A stretch of DNA of 64,000 nucleotides from a virus, in IMG/VR virus record IMGVR_UViG_3300017963_000201, positions 32,001 through 96,000 of that record; one strand, written 5' to 3'. Made by a program: the position numbers and the translations under genes. The notes below the pieces were generated by a model. That model was not told the origin of the DNA and did no database searches. It saw only the letters and a list, made by a program, of their open reading frames with translations. How positions within the stretch are numbered: position 1 is the stretch's first letter; each line of letters opens with the position of its first letter. Below, one piece after another: positions 43,464 to 48,622 of the stretch.

Positions 43464-43491
43464 TTGACGTACCCAAAAACTTTTGTATTAT
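43464..43491 (+). promoter_or_regulatory. sigma70 promoter of the ncRNA/tRNA operon
   Basis: TTGACG-N16-TATTAT with AT-rich upstream element. Confidence 0.65.
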
Positions 43492-43651: not shown

Positions 43652-43657
43652 GCCTTT

Positions 43658-43794
43658 GGGCAAATGCTGTATGGCACTCCATAGCTTATATAAGTTCGAA
43701 TCTTATTATACCCTTCGGGGTATATAGCCTAACTGGTAAGGCAGCTTCTTATAAAGAAGCCAAGCGAAAATGTGCCACACAATACTTGTTGCCC
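43658..43794 (+). ncRNA. Y RNA 1 (YrlA-like) with permuted tRNA opened in the variable arm
   Basis: GGGCAA-ATG..CTTG-TTGCCC terminal helix; order T arm, acceptor closed by cUUCGg, D arm, anticodon arm (loop TTATAAA). Confidence 0.8.
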
Positions 43795-43809
43795 TTTATT
43801 AGTCAGATT

Positions 43810-43883
43810 TCTTGCTGAATGCAGTTTATGATTACATTTTTGTGTAAAAAAATCAGATCACAAACTAATCCTTGTCAGCAAGA
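43810..43883 (+). ncRNA. Y RNA 2 (minimal, no tRNA module)
   Basis: TCTTGCTGA-ATGCAG..GATTACATT..CCTTG-TCAGCAAGA; same conserved motifs as the other Y RNAs. Confidence 0.7.
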
Positions 43884-43892
43884 TTAATCCTT

Positions 43893-44123
43893 GGGGATCT
43901 AAATGCGCGTCAGGATTACATTGCACTTAACTGTTAATTAAGAGGTTGTTGGTTCGAGTCCAACCTGGCCCATCTCCGCTAGTGGGGGTAGGAATCCATG
44001 TCATAGGTTTACAGTCCCTCCCGTATGCTTGTGGCTTCCGCTCTTTTCTTACCCTCACTTTTATGGGCCAGTAGCTCAATTGGTAGAGATAATATGGTCT
44101 TGGCAAATACTTGTTAGATTCCC
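43893..44123 (+). ncRNA. Y RNA 3 containing permuted tRNA-Asn(GTT) with ~90-nt insert in acceptor loop
   Basis: GGGGATCTAA/TTAGATTCCC helix; anticodon arm CTTAA-CTGTTAA-TTAAG, T arm, CTGGCCC..GGGCCAG, D arm. Confidence 0.8.
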
Positions 44124-44135
44124 TTTTTATTATAA

Positions 44136-44363
44136 AATAACTGCATAAGAACGTACACTAACTTAATAAAAATTTTCGATGCACGCCTGCTCTACTCTTA
44201 TGCAGTTATTATTTTTTGGGGCATTCAGTTTTGTTTAAATATTTGGGGCAATAAAAATATTTCCTGAGTGCCTCTCTTAATTGTACTAAGAAATCGACGT
44301 TGACCATCCTTACCCCGCATCCCTACCTCAGCTTTCTAGACTTCCCTGGCAACGTCGATTTCT
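44136..44363 (+). ncRNA. Three stem/large-loop RNA elements
   Basis: Stems 44136-44210 (15 bp), 44218-44274 (11 bp), 44289-44363 (14 bp) separated by U-rich spacers. Confidence 0.55.
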
Positions 44364-44369
44364 AATTTT

Positions 44370-44464
44370 GGAGCGTCCGAAGCGTGACTGGATCATTTAA
44401 CATCCAAAAAATCAGCACTAGTTTTTACTTTGGAGTCTAGTATGCCTTCTGTGGATAACGTCTT
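44370..44464 (+). ncRNA. Possible further Y-like RNA
   Basis: GTCCGAAG 5' motif; GCGTGACTGGA/TCTAGTATGC stem; 3' motif deviates. Confidence 0.35.
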
Positions 44465-44530
44465 TAATTTGATTATGGCTTTATTTGCTTCCTGGATTAT
44501 AGTAGTATTTATAGCATCGCACTTTGGCAA

Positions 44531-44603
44531 GGGGCACTAGCCTAACGGATAAGGCATCGGCCTTCTAAGCCGACCAATCGGGGTTCGATTCCTCGGTGTC
44601 CCG
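44531..44603 (+). tRNA. tRNA-Arg(TCT)
   Basis: Full cloverleaf, loop CTTCTAA, no encoded CCA. Confidence 0.92.
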
Positions 44604-44614
44604 TAGGAGATGCT

Positions 44615-44800
44615 ATGAATGATAAGGAAATCGTTGCGGAGCTAAGAAGAATTGGATCTGATGTTTTGAATAAACTTTGGAAAGCTCACCATGATTATCA
44701 TTTCAAAACCATAGATGCCCAAGAGTTTATCAAAATATTTAAACAAGCTGTAGCTAAGTTTAATGAAGCAAATACTATCATAGAAAGAGAAAGACATTAG
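44615..44800 (+). CDS. Small hypothetical protein between tRNAs
   Basis: RBS AGGAG, 61 aa. Confidence 0.55.
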   Translation: MNDKEIVAELRRIGSDVLNKLWKAHHDYHFKTIDAQEFIKIFKQAVAKFNEANTIIERERH

Positions 44801-44883
44801 GCTGCTGTGACGGAATGGTATACGTATCAGACTTAAAATCTGATGCCCAGATGGGATTGAGGGTTCGAGTCCCCCCAGCAGCA
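44801..44883 (+). tRNA. tRNA-Leu(TAA)
   Basis: Cloverleaf with long variable arm, loop CTTAAAA. Confidence 0.92.
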
Positions 44884-44886
44884 TAC

Positions 44887-44970
44887 GGATCGGTGCCCGA
44901 GCTGGTCAAAGGGGACGGGCTGTAAACCCGTTGTCATGTGGCTACGATGGTTCGAATCCATCCCGATCCA
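44887..44970 (+). tRNA. tRNA-Tyr(GTA)
   Basis: Cloverleaf with long variable arm, loop CTGTAAA. Confidence 0.92.
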
Positions 44971-44980
44971 TATATAAGTC

Positions 44981-45119
44981 TTACTCCGAATGCAGTAAGA
45001 GATTACATTGCTCTTCGAAAGCCGTGGTTGCGGGTTCAAGTCCCGCTCCCCCGATTTCGGGGGATAGCTCAATTGGTAGAGCACGTAAAATAATCTCTTG
45101 CAACCCTTGTCGGAGTAAA
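44981..45119 (+). ncRNA. Y RNA 4 (YrlA-like) containing permuted tRNA-Arg(TCG)
   Basis: TTACTCCGA-ATG..CTTG-TCGGAGTAA helix; GCT-CTTCGAA-AGC, T arm, TCCCCCG-ATTT-CGGGGGA, D arm. Confidence 0.85.
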
Positions 45120-45133
45120 TTTTTGGAGGTTTT

Positions 45134-45718
45134 ATGAATACGCATATTGAGTACGAACGAAAGTTTTTGATTGGGAAGAGCGATTGGATGCACTATGTCT
45201 CTAAGACAGTTTACATAGTTCAAGGCTACCTGTCTTTTGATATCCCTAGTGTTCGTATTCGAAAACAATGCTCCGTAAATCAATGTGATAATTTATTTTG
45301 CAATCAATGCACCTTTGGGGATAAATTTACAATTCAACTATCGTACAATATAACAATTAAAGGTACTAAAAACAAAGAAGACCTAGCATGTAGGGATGAA
45401 TTTAACATACCTGTTAGCCCCACTATTGGAGATCATATTCTTCGCCAAGTAAAAAAAGATTTTATAGTTAAACAAAGACACTTTGTCAAATACGATGATA
45501 TCATTTGGACCATTGACGAGTTTAAGAGAGATAACCAAGATCTTATAGTAGCAGAGGTTGAGAATAGTAATAACTTACCAAAAGATGAATTTAATAAATC
45601 GGTAAATACTCATATGCCAACATGGGTACTAGAAGAAGTAACACAAGATCCAGATTATTTAAACGTAAATTTAGCTAGGCATCCCTATAACACATGGGAC
45701 TTAAACAAAAACAAATAA
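45134..45718 (+). CDS. CYTH (triphosphate tunnel) domain protein
   Basis: EYERKFL, QGYL, VRIR, WTIDEF, VAEVE, EVTQDPDYLN. Confidence 0.88.
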   Translation: MNTHIEYERKFLIGKSDWMHYVSKTVYIVQGYLSFDIPSVRIRKQCSVNQCDNLFCNQCTFGDKFTIQLSYNITIKGTKNKEDLACRDEFNIPVSPTIGDHILRQVKKDFIVKQRHFVKYDDIIWTIDEFKRDNQDLIVAEVENSNNLPKDEFNKSVNTHMPTWVLEEVTQDPDYLNVNLARHPYNTWDLNKNK

Positions 45719-45909
45719 CCGCAACCGATAAATTTATTAATGAGCTACAAAAATTAATAGGATCTAGAATTACTCAAATCGATCTTTGGTACAAAGATGG
45801 TATTATAAGAATGGAGTTCAGAGATAGAGAAGGCATCCAGGTAGACATTAAAAAAGGGCTAATAGAAATTTTTAAGGAAGATAAGTTAATACAAATAAAA
45901 ATATTTTAG
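45694..45909 (+). CDS. Hypothetical protein
   Basis: Operonic ORF. Confidence 0.45.
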   Translation: MGLKQKQITATDKFINELQKLIGSRITQIDLWYKDGIIRMEFRDREGIQVDIKKGLIEIFKEDKLIQIKIF

Positions 45910-45971
45910 GCAGCGGTAGTGTACTAATCTTTCCCAAAACAGTGTCAAATGTGTCCATGCCTATCGCTGCC
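45909..45971 (+). ncRNA. Stem/large-loop element directly upstream of rsr
   Basis: GGCAGCGGTAG/CTATCGCTGCC 11-bp stem. Confidence 0.45.
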
Positions 45972-45999
45972 ATTGTCCTCACAGAAAGGGGAATGCATT

Positions 46000-47553
46000 A
46001 TGAATAAACAAGTCTTCAAAACGACTAGAGGGAAAATACCCGAAAGGGCTAATACCTACAATAAGGCAGGAGGTAAAGCTTATACGAGATCCCCAGAGGC
46101 ATCTTTAGTACAGATGGCTTTGACAGGAACTTTCTATAATACGTTCTATTGCTCCGGTAGAGCACAACTGAACGAAACGATAGATTTGTGCAAAAAGGTA
46201 GATCCTAGATTCGTAGCACAGACAGCTATCTACGCAAGAAGCAAAGGGCTCATGAAAGATATGCCTATGTTTCTTTGTGCTCATTTAGCAAAAGAAGATC
46301 CTAAACTTTTGGAGCTGATCTTTCCACAGGTAATGAGCAATGGGATAGTCCTCAAGAAGTTTGTACACATGCTTAGGTCTGGGGTTGTCGGGCGTAAAAG
46401 TATGGGGACCACGATCAAAAGAGCTGTTACTAATTGGATCCAGAATCGATCTTACCATGGGTTGTTCCGAGACGCTATCGGTGGGGATGTCACGATTGCA
46501 GACATAATAAAAATGGTTCACCCCAGACCTCAAGATAAATCAAGAGAAGCGTTCTATGCTTATTTGATCGGTAAGAAATATAATCATGAATCACTGCCTA
46601 CTATTGTAAAAGAATATGAGGCTTTCAAAAAAGGAGAAACCAAAGAAGTACCCAATGTAGAGTTTCGTTACTTAACTTCTCTGAAACTGGGTAAAACCGA
46701 ATGGACCCAAATTGCCTTGAACGCCCCTTGGCATATGTGTCGAATGAACTTGAATACCTTTGATCGCCATGGGGTATTCAAGGATAAAAAAGTGACAAAA
46801 AGAATTGCCGACAAAATCAGGGACCGCGAATCAATAAGAAAGGTTGGCGTATTCCCCTACCAACTTTTGGCAGCATACAAAGCAGAGAAGGATTTGCCAC
46901 GAGAGATCATTGAGTCTCTGCACGATGCAATGGAAATCGCAACCAAGAATGTGCCCACTGTTGAAGGGAAAGTTGTATTGTGCCCGGACGTATCAGGTTC
47001 TATGCAAAGCTATAGCGTTACAGGGTCAAAAAATTCTAGTATAAAGCCGTTAGACGTTGCCGCTTTAGTTACAGCCGTGGTATTGAGAAATAACCCAGAC
47101 GCTTTGGTTTTACCCTTCGATACAGGATTACACAATATAAGACTCGAACCTAGAGATACGGTTATGACTAATGCAAACAAACTAGGGAGAATTTATGGTG
47201 GAGGTACCTCAGTAAGTGTACCCATGCGGTATCTTATAGACAAAAGGATCAAAGCCGATGTCATTATCTACATAAGCGACAACGAGTCTTGGGCAGATCC
47301 TTATCACCGAAGTACTGCTTTAGAAGGGTACTGGCAACAATTCAAATCAAAGAATAGAAACGCTAAACTTATTTGTATCGACACTTATGTAGAGAAAAAC
47401 GTACAGGCTAAAGATGCTCCAGATGTATTAAACATTGGTGGTTTTTCAGACAACGTTTTTACGCTAATAAATCTTTTTCTTAATGGAAGCATTGGTACTG
47501 AGGGTATCGTAAGCGAAGTCAAAAAAATTAACATGGGAGAGCGTGATGCCTAA
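46000..47553 (+). CDS. rsr: Ro60/TROVE RNA-binding protein (Rsr)
   Basis: NKAGGKAY, TGTFYNTFY, IKMVHPRP, RMNLNTF, VFPYQLL, vWA MIDAS DVSGSM, GGT, SDNESW, IGGFSD. Confidence 0.93.
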   Translation: MNKQVFKTTRGKIPERANTYNKAGGKAYTRSPEASLVQMALTGTFYNTFYCSGRAQLNETIDLCKKVDPRFVAQTAIYARSKGLMKDMPMFLCAHLAKEDPKLLELIFPQVMSNGIVLKKFVHMLRSGVVGRKSMGTTIKRAVTNWIQNRSYHGLFRDAIGGDVTIADIIKMVHPRPQDKSREAFYAYLIGKKYNHESLPTIVKEYEAFKKGETKEVPNVEFRYLTSLKLGKTEWTQIALNAPWHMCRMNLNTFDRHGVFKDKKVTKRIADKIRDRESIRKVGVFPYQLLAAYKAEKDLPREIIESLHDAMEIATKNVPTVEGKVVLCPDVSGSMQSYSVTGSKNSSIKPLDVAALVTAVVLRNNPDALVLPFDTGLHNIRLEPRDTVMTNANKLGRIYGGGTSVSVPMRYLIDKRIKADVIIYISDNESWADPYHRSTALEGYWQQFKSKNRNAKLICIDTYVEKNVQAKDAPDVLNIGGFSDNVFTLINLFLNGSIGTEGIVSEVKKINMGERDA

Positions 47554-48312: not shown

Positions 48313-48622
48313 TGGGCCAGCATCATAATTAGTCTCTGTTGTTAATTTTGTCCTTGGTGTTTTGCCCACAGCTTTAAACCTAAAGACGGATCAATTACTG
48401 GGCATGAATAAAAACCGCGTGCAGTGCGGGTTCAAGTCCCGTTCCGACCACCATATGGTCGGATAGTTCAATGGTAGAACGCATGCTTGATCAGATTCTA
48501 AATCGTGTGCCAGGAAAGATTCGGTACAGGGGGCTCGCTGGATGCCCTGTATCCCAGCACTTGGGTGGGATTGCTGTTGTGAAAAATGGTGATTTTTTAT
48601 AGCGGGCAATCCCATCTCTTTT
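48313..48622 (+). ncRNA. Structured RNA with permuted tRNA-like module, ending in a terminator
   Basis: T arm 48426-42, acceptor TCCGACC-ACCA-TAT-GGTCGGA, D arm 48466-80, closed by GCGTGC/GCATGC; several flanking stems; hairpin+U tract at 48564-48622. Confidence 0.75.

What the first reader, a model, noticed from the sequence alone, without database searches (positions are those of the whole stretch)
43658..47553. Phage Ro60 locus with an array of Y RNAs carrying complete, differently permuted tRNAs that retain anticodons
Seen: four RNAs share a terminal helix with 5' RAATGC and 3' CTTGT motifs, and three also share GATTACATT; they lie upstream of a TROVE/Ro60 gene. Three contain all four tRNA arms in permuted order (T arm before D arm, acceptor stem closed by a loop). 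The Ro-binding stem is attached at a different place in each: variable arm (Y1), D/anticodon junction (Y3), within the anticodon stem (Y4). Known: bacterial YrlA RNAs mimic tRNA with D, acceptor and T arms, with the Ro-binding stem in place of the anticodon arm. Inference: this is a diversified set of anticodon-bearing Ro RNPs. They could act as decoys for host anticodon nucleases, as Ro-protected tRNA reserves, or as permuted tRNA precursors. They may also record Y RNAs arising repeatedly from tRNAs.
Basis: partly seen in the sequence, partly recalled or inferred. Interest (0 to 1): 0.95.

Follow-up and report, generated by a model that had tools for sequence, protein, structure and literature searches.

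The report
Phage Ro60 gene with Y RNA array
A large phage carries a Ro60 RNA-binding protein gene preceded by four Y RNA genes mixed with three tRNA genes; three of the Y RNAs imitate tRNA down to an anticodon-like hairpin, which proves to be a common, little-noticed trait of this known RNA family rather than a one-off.

Summary
Four Y RNAs (43657-43798, 43810-43886, 43896-44120, 44983-45119) lie on the same strand upstream of a Ro60 gene (45949-47553) in a 145-kb phage record, interleaved with its only three tRNA genes. All four match Y RNA models. Y3 holds a 5-bp, tRNA-Asn-like anticodon arm, a 5-nt variable loop, a T arm, a 7-bp acceptor stem and a D arm.

The interpretation needs trimming. 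Y3 and Y4 have the same connectivity, and only Y1 differs. Y4's "anticodon" hairpin is the published "V" stem-loop of YrlA. Y1's hairpin may be a 7-bp stem with a triloop. ARAGORN calls on re-permuted sequences are uninformative, because it still calls tRNAs when the arm is shuffled.

New context: V hairpins with an anticodon-type 7-nt loop occur in 26 of 52 phage and 16 of 88 bacterial Y RNAs (about 4-5 expected). Arrays of Y RNAs beside Ro60 are widespread in both. The triplets are not conserved among homologues.

Most likely this is a Ro60/YrlA-type RNP module with unusually complete tRNA mimics. A decoy or decoding role is unsupported. The first-stage reader also noted these RNAs separately on this genome. 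Verdict: new variant of a known kind, moderate interest.

The parts
43464..43491 (+). sigma-70-like promoter candidate upstream of Y1 (TTGACG, 16 nt, TATTAT)
   Evidence: 10 of 12 matches, the best site in the region. The total number of sites in the region is no more than chance, so this is a candidate only.
43657..43798 (+). Y1: YrlA-class Y RNA. Terminal helix GGGCAA/UUGCCC, T arm 43690-43706, acceptor hairpin 43707-43724 closed by UUCG, D arm 43727-43742, extra hairpin 43744-43760 directly after the D arm. It has no hairpin at the usual V position.
   Evidence: Rfam YrlA 40.7 bits, E 8e-7. R1 43.9 bits, with the V positions deleted and a 19-nt insert after the D arm. MFE -47.8 kcal/mol, z -4.0. 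The 5-bp/7-nt-loop form is 2.1 kcal/mol worse than the 7-bp/triloop form.
43810..43886 (+). Y2: short Y RNA (YrlB-like) with the terminal helix, GAAUGC, GAUUACAUU and CUUGUC, but no tRNA-like core
   Evidence: R1 36.2 bits, full-length alignment with the 68 core positions deleted. MFE z -4.2.
43896..44120 (+). Y3: Y RNA with a full tRNA-Asn-like module. Anticodon-type arm 43926-43942 (loop CUGUUAA), variable loop AGGUU, T arm 43948-43964, acceptor 3' strand 43965-43971 plus A, ~93-nt insert hairpin 43972-44064, acceptor 5' strand 44065-44071, D arm 44074-44089.
   Evidence: Rfam tRNA 35.1 bits for 43907-43972. R1 about 30 bits. The best blastn hits of 43923-43973 are annotated phage tRNA-Asn genes, 81-87% identical. 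The constrained cloverleaf fold is -69.0 vs MFE -69.1 kcal/mol.
44531..44603 (+). tRNA-Arg (UCU)
   Evidence: ARAGORN; Rfam tRNA 60 bits
44615..44800 (+). 61-codon ORF between tRNA genes, no family found
44801..44883 (+). tRNA-Leu (UAA)
44887..44970 (+). tRNA-Tyr (GUA)
44983..45119 (+). Y4: canonical YrlA-class Y RNA. V hairpin 45010-45022 (GCU/AGC stem, loop CUUCGAA), T arm 45030-45046, acceptor hairpin 45047-45064, D arm 45067-45082.
   Evidence: Rfam YrlA 60.7 bits, E 1e-12. R1 99.4 bits. MFE z -5.3.
45134..45718 (+). 194-aa CYTH-like (triphosphate tunnel) protein; not shown to belong to the module
   Evidence: N-terminal IEYERKF motif. ESM Atlas feature score 0.95 and structure TM 0.76-0.82 to CYTH clusters. 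No Pfam hit. Absent from the other Y RNA loci.
45694..45909 (+). 71-codon ORF, no family found
45949..47553 (+). Ro60 (Rsr) gene, 534 aa
47543..48304 (+). DUF7873 protein whose start overlaps the Ro60 stop; not found in the other Y RNA loci
   Evidence: Pfam 2.9e-64; tblastn found none in other loci
48385..48530 (+). fifth tRNA-like module (T arm, acceptor hairpin with ACCA in its loop, D arm; core 48426-48484) without the Ro-binding motifs
   Evidence: Rfam YrlA partial match, 30.7 bits. R1 31.1 bits for core positions 46-103 only. Fold z -3.0.

Best explanation
This is a phage-borne copy of the bacterial Ro60 (Rsr)/Y RNA module. Four Y RNA genes of the YrlA/YrlB family sit inside the phage's small tRNA cluster, just upstream of Ro60.

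Shown here: the RNAs have the family's covarying terminal helix with the RAAUGC and CUUGUC motifs, the second stem, the conserved UUACAU element and, in Y1, Y3 and Y4, the permuted T arm-acceptor hairpin-D arm core.

Inferred from published work on D. radiodurans, S. Typhimurium and Thermus phage phiLo: the terminal helix binds Ro60, and the tRNA-like domain tethers the RNP to a tRNA-recognising partner such as host PNPase, for handling of structured or damaged RNA during infection.

The anticodon-like hairpins are versions of the family's 'V' stem-loop. It is short in Y4 and full-length and tRNA-Asn-like in Y3. In Y1 an analogous hairpin sits on the other side of the junction. They make the mimicry of the tRNA long arm more complete. 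The RNAs do not decode.
For: Ro60 identity. All four RNAs match Y RNA models. The composite signature occurs only here in the genome. In 30 phage relatives the terminal helix has 15-18 double compensatory changes per pair at five of its seven pairs (6 at the sixth; the seventh is invariant), and the second stem and T arm also covary. The same architecture and arrays occur beside Ro60 on the same strand in 80 bacterial loci (284 hits) and in many large phage contigs (203 hits in 58 sources); 18 of the fetched phage stretches also hold a Ro60 gene. The hairpin position equals the published V stem-loop and YUAY element. V hairpins with a 7-nt loop, U at loop position 2 and a purine at position 6 occur in 26 of 52 phage and 16 of 88 bacterial Y RNAs, against 3.9 and 5.2 in shuffles (0 of 300 shuffles reach either). 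Phage phiLo Ro60 binds two phage Y RNAs and host PNPase (PMC12135203).
Against: No expression, processing or binding data exist for this phage. Rfam's own gathering score for YrlA is not reached. The 5' motif is degenerate in Y1 (GCAAAUG) and Y3 (CUAAAUG) compared with the published GNCGAA. No partner protein is identified. No close relative of this phage was found, so the individual RNAs cannot be tested for conservation. The phage comparison set was fetched with a sequence pattern, which may bias it.
Confidence: 0.72

Rival explanations
1. The anticodon-like hairpins make the Y RNAs decoys, sponges or sensors for host anticodon nucleases or other anticodon-loop-targeting defence enzymes. Ro60 would protect or process the cleaved mimic.
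For: The loops keep the U-turn signature (U33, A37, A38) while the middle triplet varies widely. Phage Y RNAs carry such loops more often, and on longer stems, than bacterial ones (26/52 vs 16/88, Fisher p 1e-4). The arrays sit in phage tRNA clusters. Ro60 is linked in the literature to RNA repair operons induced by damaged tRNA (PMC7790460, listed) and to RNA repair in jumbo phages (PMC7824862).
Against: No nuclease, ligase or RtcB is linked to the module here. Stems are mostly 3-4 bp, shorter than a real anticodon stem. The triplets are not conserved among homologues and cover many amino acids, so no specific target stands out. The same loops occur in free-living bacteria, where a phage-defence decoy makes less sense.
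Confidence: 0.12
2. The hairpins are leftovers of descent from tRNA genes (the dimeric-tRNA origin model) or simple structural spacers, with no anticodon-related function.
For: The dimeric-tRNA model is published. In Y3 an upstream 7-mer (GCGUCAG) can also pair 6 of 7 with the acceptor 3' strand, so the 5' part looks like a nearly whole tRNA. Y3's arm resembles phage tRNA-Asn genes. Triplets drift among homologues. Many family members have other loops (GNRA-type) or no hairpin at this position.
Against: Across a family old enough to span several bacterial phyla and many phages, the 7-nt loop length, U33 and A37/A38 remain enriched five-fold or more over shuffles. This points to selection on loop shape.
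Confidence: 0.2
3. Y3 (and perhaps others) is a permuted or split tRNA precursor that is cut in the acceptor loop, receives CCA and works in translation or is aminoacylated.
For: Y3 has a 7-bp acceptor stem followed by a discriminator-like A. M. smegmatis YrlA is cut by RNase P and extended by the CCA-adding enzyme. The phage has no tRNA-Asn gene. Several related Y RNAs and the downstream module at 48426-48484 carry ACCA right after the acceptor 3' strand.
Against: The ~50-nt Ro-binding stem would remain inserted between the D arm and the anticodon arm, and bacteria have no known way to remove it. Y1 and Y4 acceptors are sealed by 4-nt loops. Y1's formal anticodon AUA is not normally used. ARAGORN calls on re-permuted sequences carry no weight.
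Confidence: 0.03

Closest known systems
YrlA (Rfam RF02553), the tRNA-like Y RNA of S. Typhimurium, M. smegmatis and mycobacteriophages (Chen et al. 2014, PMC4201824; Wang et al. 2018, bioRxiv 10.1101/312249)
   Same: Lies next to Ro60 on the same strand. Has the terminal helix with the CGAA-type motif, the YUAY element, the optional V stem-loop, and a T arm-closed acceptor hairpin-D arm core.
   Different: Y3 has a 5-bp stem, a canonical anticodon-type loop and a 5-nt variable loop, so all four tRNA arms are present. The solved Salmonella YrlA has no such loop. Y1 carries its extra hairpin after the D arm. There are four copies mixed with tRNA genes. Rfam scores are below the gathering threshold.
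D. radiodurans Yrn1
   Same: A Ro60-bound Y RNA with a T-like arm and a modelled 'anticodon arm' (5-bp stem), attached in a different orientation from YrlA.
   Different: Yrn1's loop has 6 nt and it lacks a full D arm. The window's RNAs are YrlA-type, not Yrn1-type.
Thermus phage phiLo Ro60 with Yrl1/Yrl2 (PMC12135203)
   Same: A phage-encoded Ro60 with more than one Y RNA gene upstream. Binding to Ro60 and to host PNPase has been shown experimentally.
   Different: The phiLo Y RNAs are described as stem-bulge-stem RNAs, not as tRNA mimics with anticodon-like arms. Its Ro60 is only distantly related (E 3e-23).
Circularly permuted tRNA genes (the alga Cyanidioschyzon merolae and some archaea; named from my own knowledge, alluded to without species names)
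   Same: The 3' half (anticodon arm, T arm, acceptor 3' strand) precedes the 5' half (acceptor 5' strand, D arm), with an intervening sequence in the acceptor position.
   Different: Those precursors are circularised and re-cut to give ordinary tRNAs. Here the ends are locked in a Ro-binding helix, and no such processing pathway is known in bacteria.

Membership tests
YrlA-type Y RNA | Encoded within about 4 kb of a Ro60 gene, on the same strand | tested here: met
   Y1-Y4 lie 0.8-2.3 kb upstream of the Ro60 gene, on the + strand
YrlA-type Y RNA | 5' and 3' ends pair in a helix that carries the GNCGAA(N)G-type motif and the 3' CUUGUC | tested here: met
   The helices have 6-7 of 7 pairs. The motif is CCGAAUG in Y4 and CUGAAUG in Y2, and weaker in Y1 (GCAAAUG) and Y3 (CUAAAUG). 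The helix covaries in 30 relatives.
YrlA-type Y RNA | Conserved T and D stem-loops with a closed acceptor-like hairpin between them | tested here: met
   Met for Y1, Y3 and Y4. Y2 lacks the core and is YrlB-like.
YrlA-type Y RNA | Score at or above Rfam RF02553 gathering threshold (69 bits) | tested here: not met
   60.7 bits (Y4) and 40.7 bits (Y1), with E 1e-12 and 8e-7. The family model R1 built here gives 99.4, 43.9, 36.2 and about 30 bits.
YrlA-type Y RNA | Bound by Ro60 in vivo; tRNA-type modifications (pseudouridine 55, dihydrouridine) | not testable with these tools
   Needs pull-down and modification mapping
Ro60/Rsr protein | TROVE HEAT-repeat ring followed by a vWA domain | tested here: met
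   vWA_Ro60 4e-23; TROVE 1.8e-4, below Pfam's cut-off. Near full-length matches to Rsr 2NVO (2e-25) and phiLo Ro60 (3e-23). About 50% identity to many bacterial Ro60 proteins.
Bona fide tRNA (for Y3, Y1, Y4 after re-permutation) | Recognised as a tRNA because of its anticodon arm, not only its other arms | tested here: inconclusive
   ARAGORN calls Asn-GUU, Tyr-AUA and Arg-UCG. But it still calls a tRNA in 42-96% of constructs whose anticodon-arm segment was shuffled or replaced by random window DNA.
Bona fide tRNA | Free 5' end and a 3' CCA end on the acceptor stem; contiguous D arm-anticodon arm junction | tested here: not met
   The acceptor stems are closed by loops (UUCG, AUUU, or a ~93-nt insert). 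No CCA follows the acceptor 3' strand in Y1, Y3 or Y4. The Ro stem interrupts the junction.
Anticodon stem-loop mimic (V hairpin) | 7-nt loop with U at position 2 and a purine at position 6, on a stem next to the variable loop and T arm | tested here: met
   Y3 has 5 bp with loop CUGUUAA and Y4 has 3 bp with loop CUUCGAA. The feature is enriched in the family at 26/52 and 16/88, against 3.9 and 5.2 expected. Y1 is ambiguous.

The most novel reading that the evidence does not exclude
YrlA-class Y RNAs, above all the phage ones, are complete tRNA mimics. Their 'V' stem-loop would really be an anticodon stem-loop stacked on a short helix next to the D arm. Arrays of such RNAs with different loop triplets would present a panel of tRNA look-alikes on Ro60. 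These could bait, titrate or report on enzymes that attack or read anticodon loops during infection, such as defence anticodon nucleases.
Probability: 0.12. Interest if true: 0.85.

Novelty: new variant of a known kind. Interest (0 to 1): 0.55.

Why it matters
Ro60/Y RNA particles are conserved from bacteria to humans, yet the partner of the bacterial tRNA-like domain is still unknown. The published view is that this domain lacks an anticodon loop. This locus, and the roughly 140 relatives compared here, show that a hairpin with the anticodon-loop signature is frequent, especially in phages. They also show that full-length versions exist (Y3), and that Y RNAs come in arrays embedded in tRNA clusters. 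That narrows the search for partners towards proteins that read the whole tRNA shape. It offers natural variants for binding and structural work. Y3 also looks like an intermediate of the proposed dimeric-tRNA origin of Y RNAs.

Tried and rejected
1. Re-permuting Y1, Y3 and Y4 and running ARAGORN. Rejected as evidence, because controls with shuffled or random anticodon-arm segments are still called tRNA in 42-96% of cases.

2. A loose pattern, AATGC...GATTACATT, in IMG/VR. It gave mostly chance hits and was not used.

3. Looking for close relatives of this phage to test conservation of each RNA.

4. A scan for Y1-type hairpins after a D arm. It was swamped by tandem real tRNA genes, and the candidate at L175 6490-6580 is an ordinary tRNA. 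A cleaner measure of linker length was used instead.

5. Two of my boundary-finding scripts were too loose or too strict and were replaced. A first regex for the bacterial set missed their GGAACUACAU form of the motif and was corrected.

6. Conserved gene neighbours. The CYTH-like, 71-aa and DUF7873 genes are not found in any other Y RNA locus fetched.

7. RNA repair context. There is no RtcB in the genome, and only a sub-threshold RNA-ligase match elsewhere (16 bits).

8. Link between Y loop triplets and neighbouring tRNA anticodons: 5 of 26, so no clear link.

9. The two Wolin-lab reviews (PMC10870794, PMC6047535) are not held. I therefore cannot exclude that they mention anticodon-like V loops or Y RNA arrays.

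Full report
WHAT IS THERE. The window is part of a 144,959-base IMG/VR virus record, about 79% complete and 39.8% G+C. On the + strand, from 43.4 to 48.6 kb, the elements run in this order:
- a promoter-like site, 43464-43491
- Y1, 43657-43798
- Y2, 43810-43886
- Y3, 43896-44120
- about 400 nt with long hairpins
- tRNA-Arg(UCU), 44531-44603
- a 61-codon ORF
- tRNA-Leu(UAA) and tRNA-Tyr(GUA)
- Y4, 44983-45119
- a 194-aa ORF and a 71-aa ORF
- the 534-aa Ro60 gene, 45949-47553
- a DUF7873 gene that overlaps its stop
- a further tRNA-like module near 48426-48484

The three tRNAs are the only ones in the whole record.

CHECK OF THE OBSERVATION. I defined a composite signature: a 7-nt helix strand running into RAATGC and, 30-260 nt later, CTTGT running into the complementary strand (at least 6 of 7 pairs). 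It occurs four times in the 145-kb genome on both strands together. All four are here, and shuffled genomes give 1.12 hits anywhere.

Each RNA folds better than its shuffles: z -4.0, -4.2 and -5.3 for Y1, Y2 and Y4 and -2.5 for Y3. Rfam's YrlA model matches Y4 (60.7 bits, E 1e-12) and Y1 (40.7 bits, E 8e-7). Both are below its gathering score of 69, so a default scan shows only tRNAs. The ORF is a true Ro60: Pfam vWA_Ro60 4e-23, near full-length matches to D. radiodurans Rsr and to phage phiLo Ro60, and about 50% identity to many bacterial Ro60 proteins.

THE tRNA-LIKE MODULES.

Y3 is the clearest. After GAUUACAUUGCA come these elements:
- a 5-bp stem with loop CUGUUAA
- a 5-nt variable loop (AGGUU)
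- a T arm
- the strand CUGGCCC plus A
- a ~93-nt insert that folds into its own long hairpin
- GGGCCAG (a perfect 7-bp acceptor stem)
- UA and a D arm
- the 3' strand of the Y stem

Rfam's tRNA model scores the 3' part above threshold (35.1 bits). That stretch is most like annotated phage tRNA-Asn genes, at 81-87% identity. A fold constrained to the cloverleaf is as stable as the unconstrained optimum (-69.0 vs -69.1 kcal/mol).

Y4 is a standard YrlA with a 16-nt insertion relative to Rfam's consensus. The insertion forms a 3-bp hairpin with loop CUUCGAA. It is followed at once by CGU, which can pair with ACG after the D arm.

Y1 has no hairpin at that place. Instead it has a 17-nt hairpin one nucleotide after the D arm. 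The family model aligns Y1 with the usual hairpin positions deleted and a 19-nt insert after the D arm.

So Y3 and Y4 share one connectivity, with the Y stem leaving the core between the D arm and the hairpin. Only Y1 differs. That is two topologies, not three.

A TEST THAT DOES NOT DISCRIMINATE. Re-permuted Y3, Y1 and Y4 are called tRNA-Asn(GUU), tRNA-Tyr(AUA) and tRNA-Arg(UCG) by ARAGORN. ARAGORN still calls a tRNA in 42-96% of constructs in which the anticodon-arm segment was shuffled or swapped for random window DNA. The T, acceptor and D arms carry the call, so this result says nothing about the anticodon arm.

FAMILY CONTEXT. The motif GAUUACAUU is not private to this phage. A pattern scan of IMG/VR found 78 stretches, mostly in large phage contigs. 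About 47 of them are Y RNAs with the same layout: helix, GAAUGC, about 7 nt, GGAUUACAU, hairpin, T arm, acceptor hairpin, D arm, CUUGUC, helix.

In an alignment of 30 of them, AAU, UUACAU, the T loop and the 3' GU are invariant. Five of the seven terminal-helix pairs each show 15-18 double compensatory changes; the sixth shows 6 and the seventh never varies. A covariance model built from this alignment (R1) finds 203 matches in 58 sources. These include arrays of up to about a dozen long (~130 nt) and short (~65 nt) Y RNAs per locus, usually inside tRNA clusters. Eighteen of the fetched phage stretches also contain a Ro60 gene.

The same model finds 284 matches in 80 bacterial Ro60 loci from Acidobacteriota, Verrucomicrobiota, Planctomycetota, Myxococcota and others. 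All but one lie on the Ro60 strand, several per locus. Arrays of Y RNAs beside Ro60 are therefore ordinary for this Ro60 clade. I infer that the phage module was acquired from bacteria.

THE HAIRPIN IS THE PUBLISHED 'V' STEM-LOOP, BUT IT LOOKS LIKE AN ANTICODON LOOP. Chen et al. [quoted passage not shown] They call it V and equate it with the variable arm, and they describe a conserved YUAY that begins it (PMC4201824). UUAC within GAUUACAU is that element. Wang et al. 2018 state that Salmonella YrlA 'lacks the anticodon loop'.

In the model-defined sets, a hairpin of at least 3 bp with a 7-nt loop, U at loop position 2 and a purine at position 6 is present as follows:
- 26 of 52 phage Y RNAs, against 3.9 in shuffles
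- 16 of 88 bacterial Y RNAs, against 5.2 in shuffles

None of 300 shuffles reaches either number. The phage excess over bacteria is significant (Fisher p 1e-4). Phage stems are 3-6 bp and bacterial ones about 3 bp (earlier versions). Seven is the preferred loop length. Positions 37 and 38 are mostly A, and position 32 is C, U or A.

One caveat applies: the phage loci were first fetched with a sequence pattern. That pattern does not select for pairing or loop content, but it may bias the sample.

At least one other phage Y RNA (in L128) has, like Y3, a 5-bp stem, loop CUGAUAA and a 5-nt variable loop. The middle triplets are diverse. They differ among bacterial homologues that are about 74% identical overall, and they match a neighbouring tRNA's anticodon in only 5 of 26 cases.

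Y1 AND THE Y3 INSERT IN CONTEXT. In 105 long Y RNAs the linker between the D arm and the 3' strand of the Y stem is normally 6-13 nt. The few with a hairpin there end in tetraloops. In the related phage locus L002, a Y RNA shares 24 of 25 nt with Y1 across the D arm and the start of the hairpin. Its hairpin has 7 bp and a GGAA loop, and its tRNA-like part is not permuted at all (my reading of the sequence). Y1's own optimum is 7 bp plus an AUA triloop. The 'anticodon AUA' of Y1 is therefore weakly founded.

Long inserts in the acceptor loop like Y3's (80-110 nt) recur in other phage and bacterial members without sequence similarity. This fits the published note of longer acceptor stems.

HOW IT MOST LIKELY WORKS. 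Shown here: the sequence and structure features of a Ro60 gene with four YrlA/YrlB-family RNAs. Inferred from established work: the terminal helix binds Ro60, and the tRNA-like domain tethers the particle to a tRNA-recognising partner. PNPase is the precedent, both in D. radiodurans and with phage phiLo Ro60 and its two Y RNAs. A Listeria phage transcriptome reports three very abundant RNAs just upstream of an Rsr-like gene (PMC12282133).

The anticodon-like hairpin most simply completes the long arm of the tRNA shape. In Y4 the hairpin abuts the 3-bp helix with no linker. Going by the general rule for three-way junctions (my own knowledge), this would favour coaxial stacking into a 6-bp stem with a 7-nt loop, with the Y stem branching off. 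This is inference, not shown.

I found no support for decoding. The acceptor stems are closed, no CCA follows them, and the Ro stem interrupts the body. I found no positive evidence for a decoy role either. There is no RtcB and no conserved neighbour. The adjacent 194-aa protein looks like a CYTH enzyme, but it is not found at other Y RNA loci.

NOVELTY AND VERDICT. Already known:
- phage Ro60 genes with Y RNAs
- tRNA mimicry with the T arm before the D arm
- the V stem-loop
- a modelled 'anticodon arm' in Yrn1
- the idea that Y RNAs derive from tRNA dimers

Not found in the papers I could read:
- the V hairpin carries the anticodon-loop signature in a large share of the family
- full-length versions such as Y3 exist
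- phage versions are more complete than bacterial ones
- Y RNAs form arrays inside phage tRNA clusters

Two reviews could not be read. I class the locus as a new variant of a known kind and of moderate interest. The first-stage reader had also noted Y1, Y3, Y4 and the downstream module separately on this same genome. Those notes agree with what I see in the sequence, but they are not independent evidence.

Noticed in passing
window 48385-48530 (core 48426-48484): A fifth permuted tRNA-like module (T arm, 7-bp acceptor hairpin, D arm) lies downstream of the DUF7873 gene. Its acceptor loop begins ACCA, that is, a discriminator plus CCA. Its outer stem lacks RAAUGC/CUUGUC. The Y RNA models match only the core (30.7 and 31.1 bits).
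   Followed up: partly
window 45134-45718: A 194-aa protein starts with the IEYERKF motif. It looks like a CYTH / triphosphate tunnel metalloenzyme (Atlas feature score 0.95, structure TM 0.76-0.82) but has no Pfam hit. It lies between Y4 and Ro60 and is not seen in other Y RNA loci.
   Followed up: partly
window 43972-44064: The insert in Y3's acceptor loop contains GGUUUACAG and AUGCUUGU. These resemble the family's UUACA element and the fused AAUGC/CUUGU motifs, so it could be a nested or degenerate Y-like unit.
   Followed up: no
window 43907-43913 with 43965-43971: The upstream 7-mer GCGUCAG can pair 6 of 7 with Y3's acceptor 3' strand. This alternative to the perfect downstream partner makes the 5' part of Y3 look like a tRNA with a degenerate D arm, as the dimeric-tRNA origin model predicts.
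   Followed up: partly
L002:7755-7900: A Y RNA whose stem encloses a non-permuted tRNA-like unit (D arm, 7-bp hairpin with a GGAA loop, T arm). Here the Y stem takes the place of the acceptor stem. ARAGORN calls it a tRNA with a 4-nt anticodon.
   Followed up: partly
L124:1363-1474, also L133, L152, L176, L194: tRNA-Lys(UUU)-like genes in five phage contigs, in normal order, carry a ~20-nt insert containing GGAUUACAU between the D arm and the anticodon arm.
   Followed up: no
L128, L141, L171, L197 (Y RNAs listed): Several phage Y RNAs have ACCA directly after the acceptor 3' strand, inside the closing loop. It looks like an encoded CCA end waiting to be exposed by cleavage.
   Followed up: no
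L202-L281 (bacterial Ro60 loci): Bacterial Ro60 genes of Acidobacteriota, Verrucomicrobiota, Planctomycetota and others are flanked by arrays of up to about ten Y RNAs on the same strand (284 model hits in 80 loci).
   Followed up: partly
window 44120-44380: Two long hairpins with large loops lie between Y3 and tRNA-Arg. One looks like a terminator followed by a T run. They match no Rfam family or Y RNA model.
   Followed up: no
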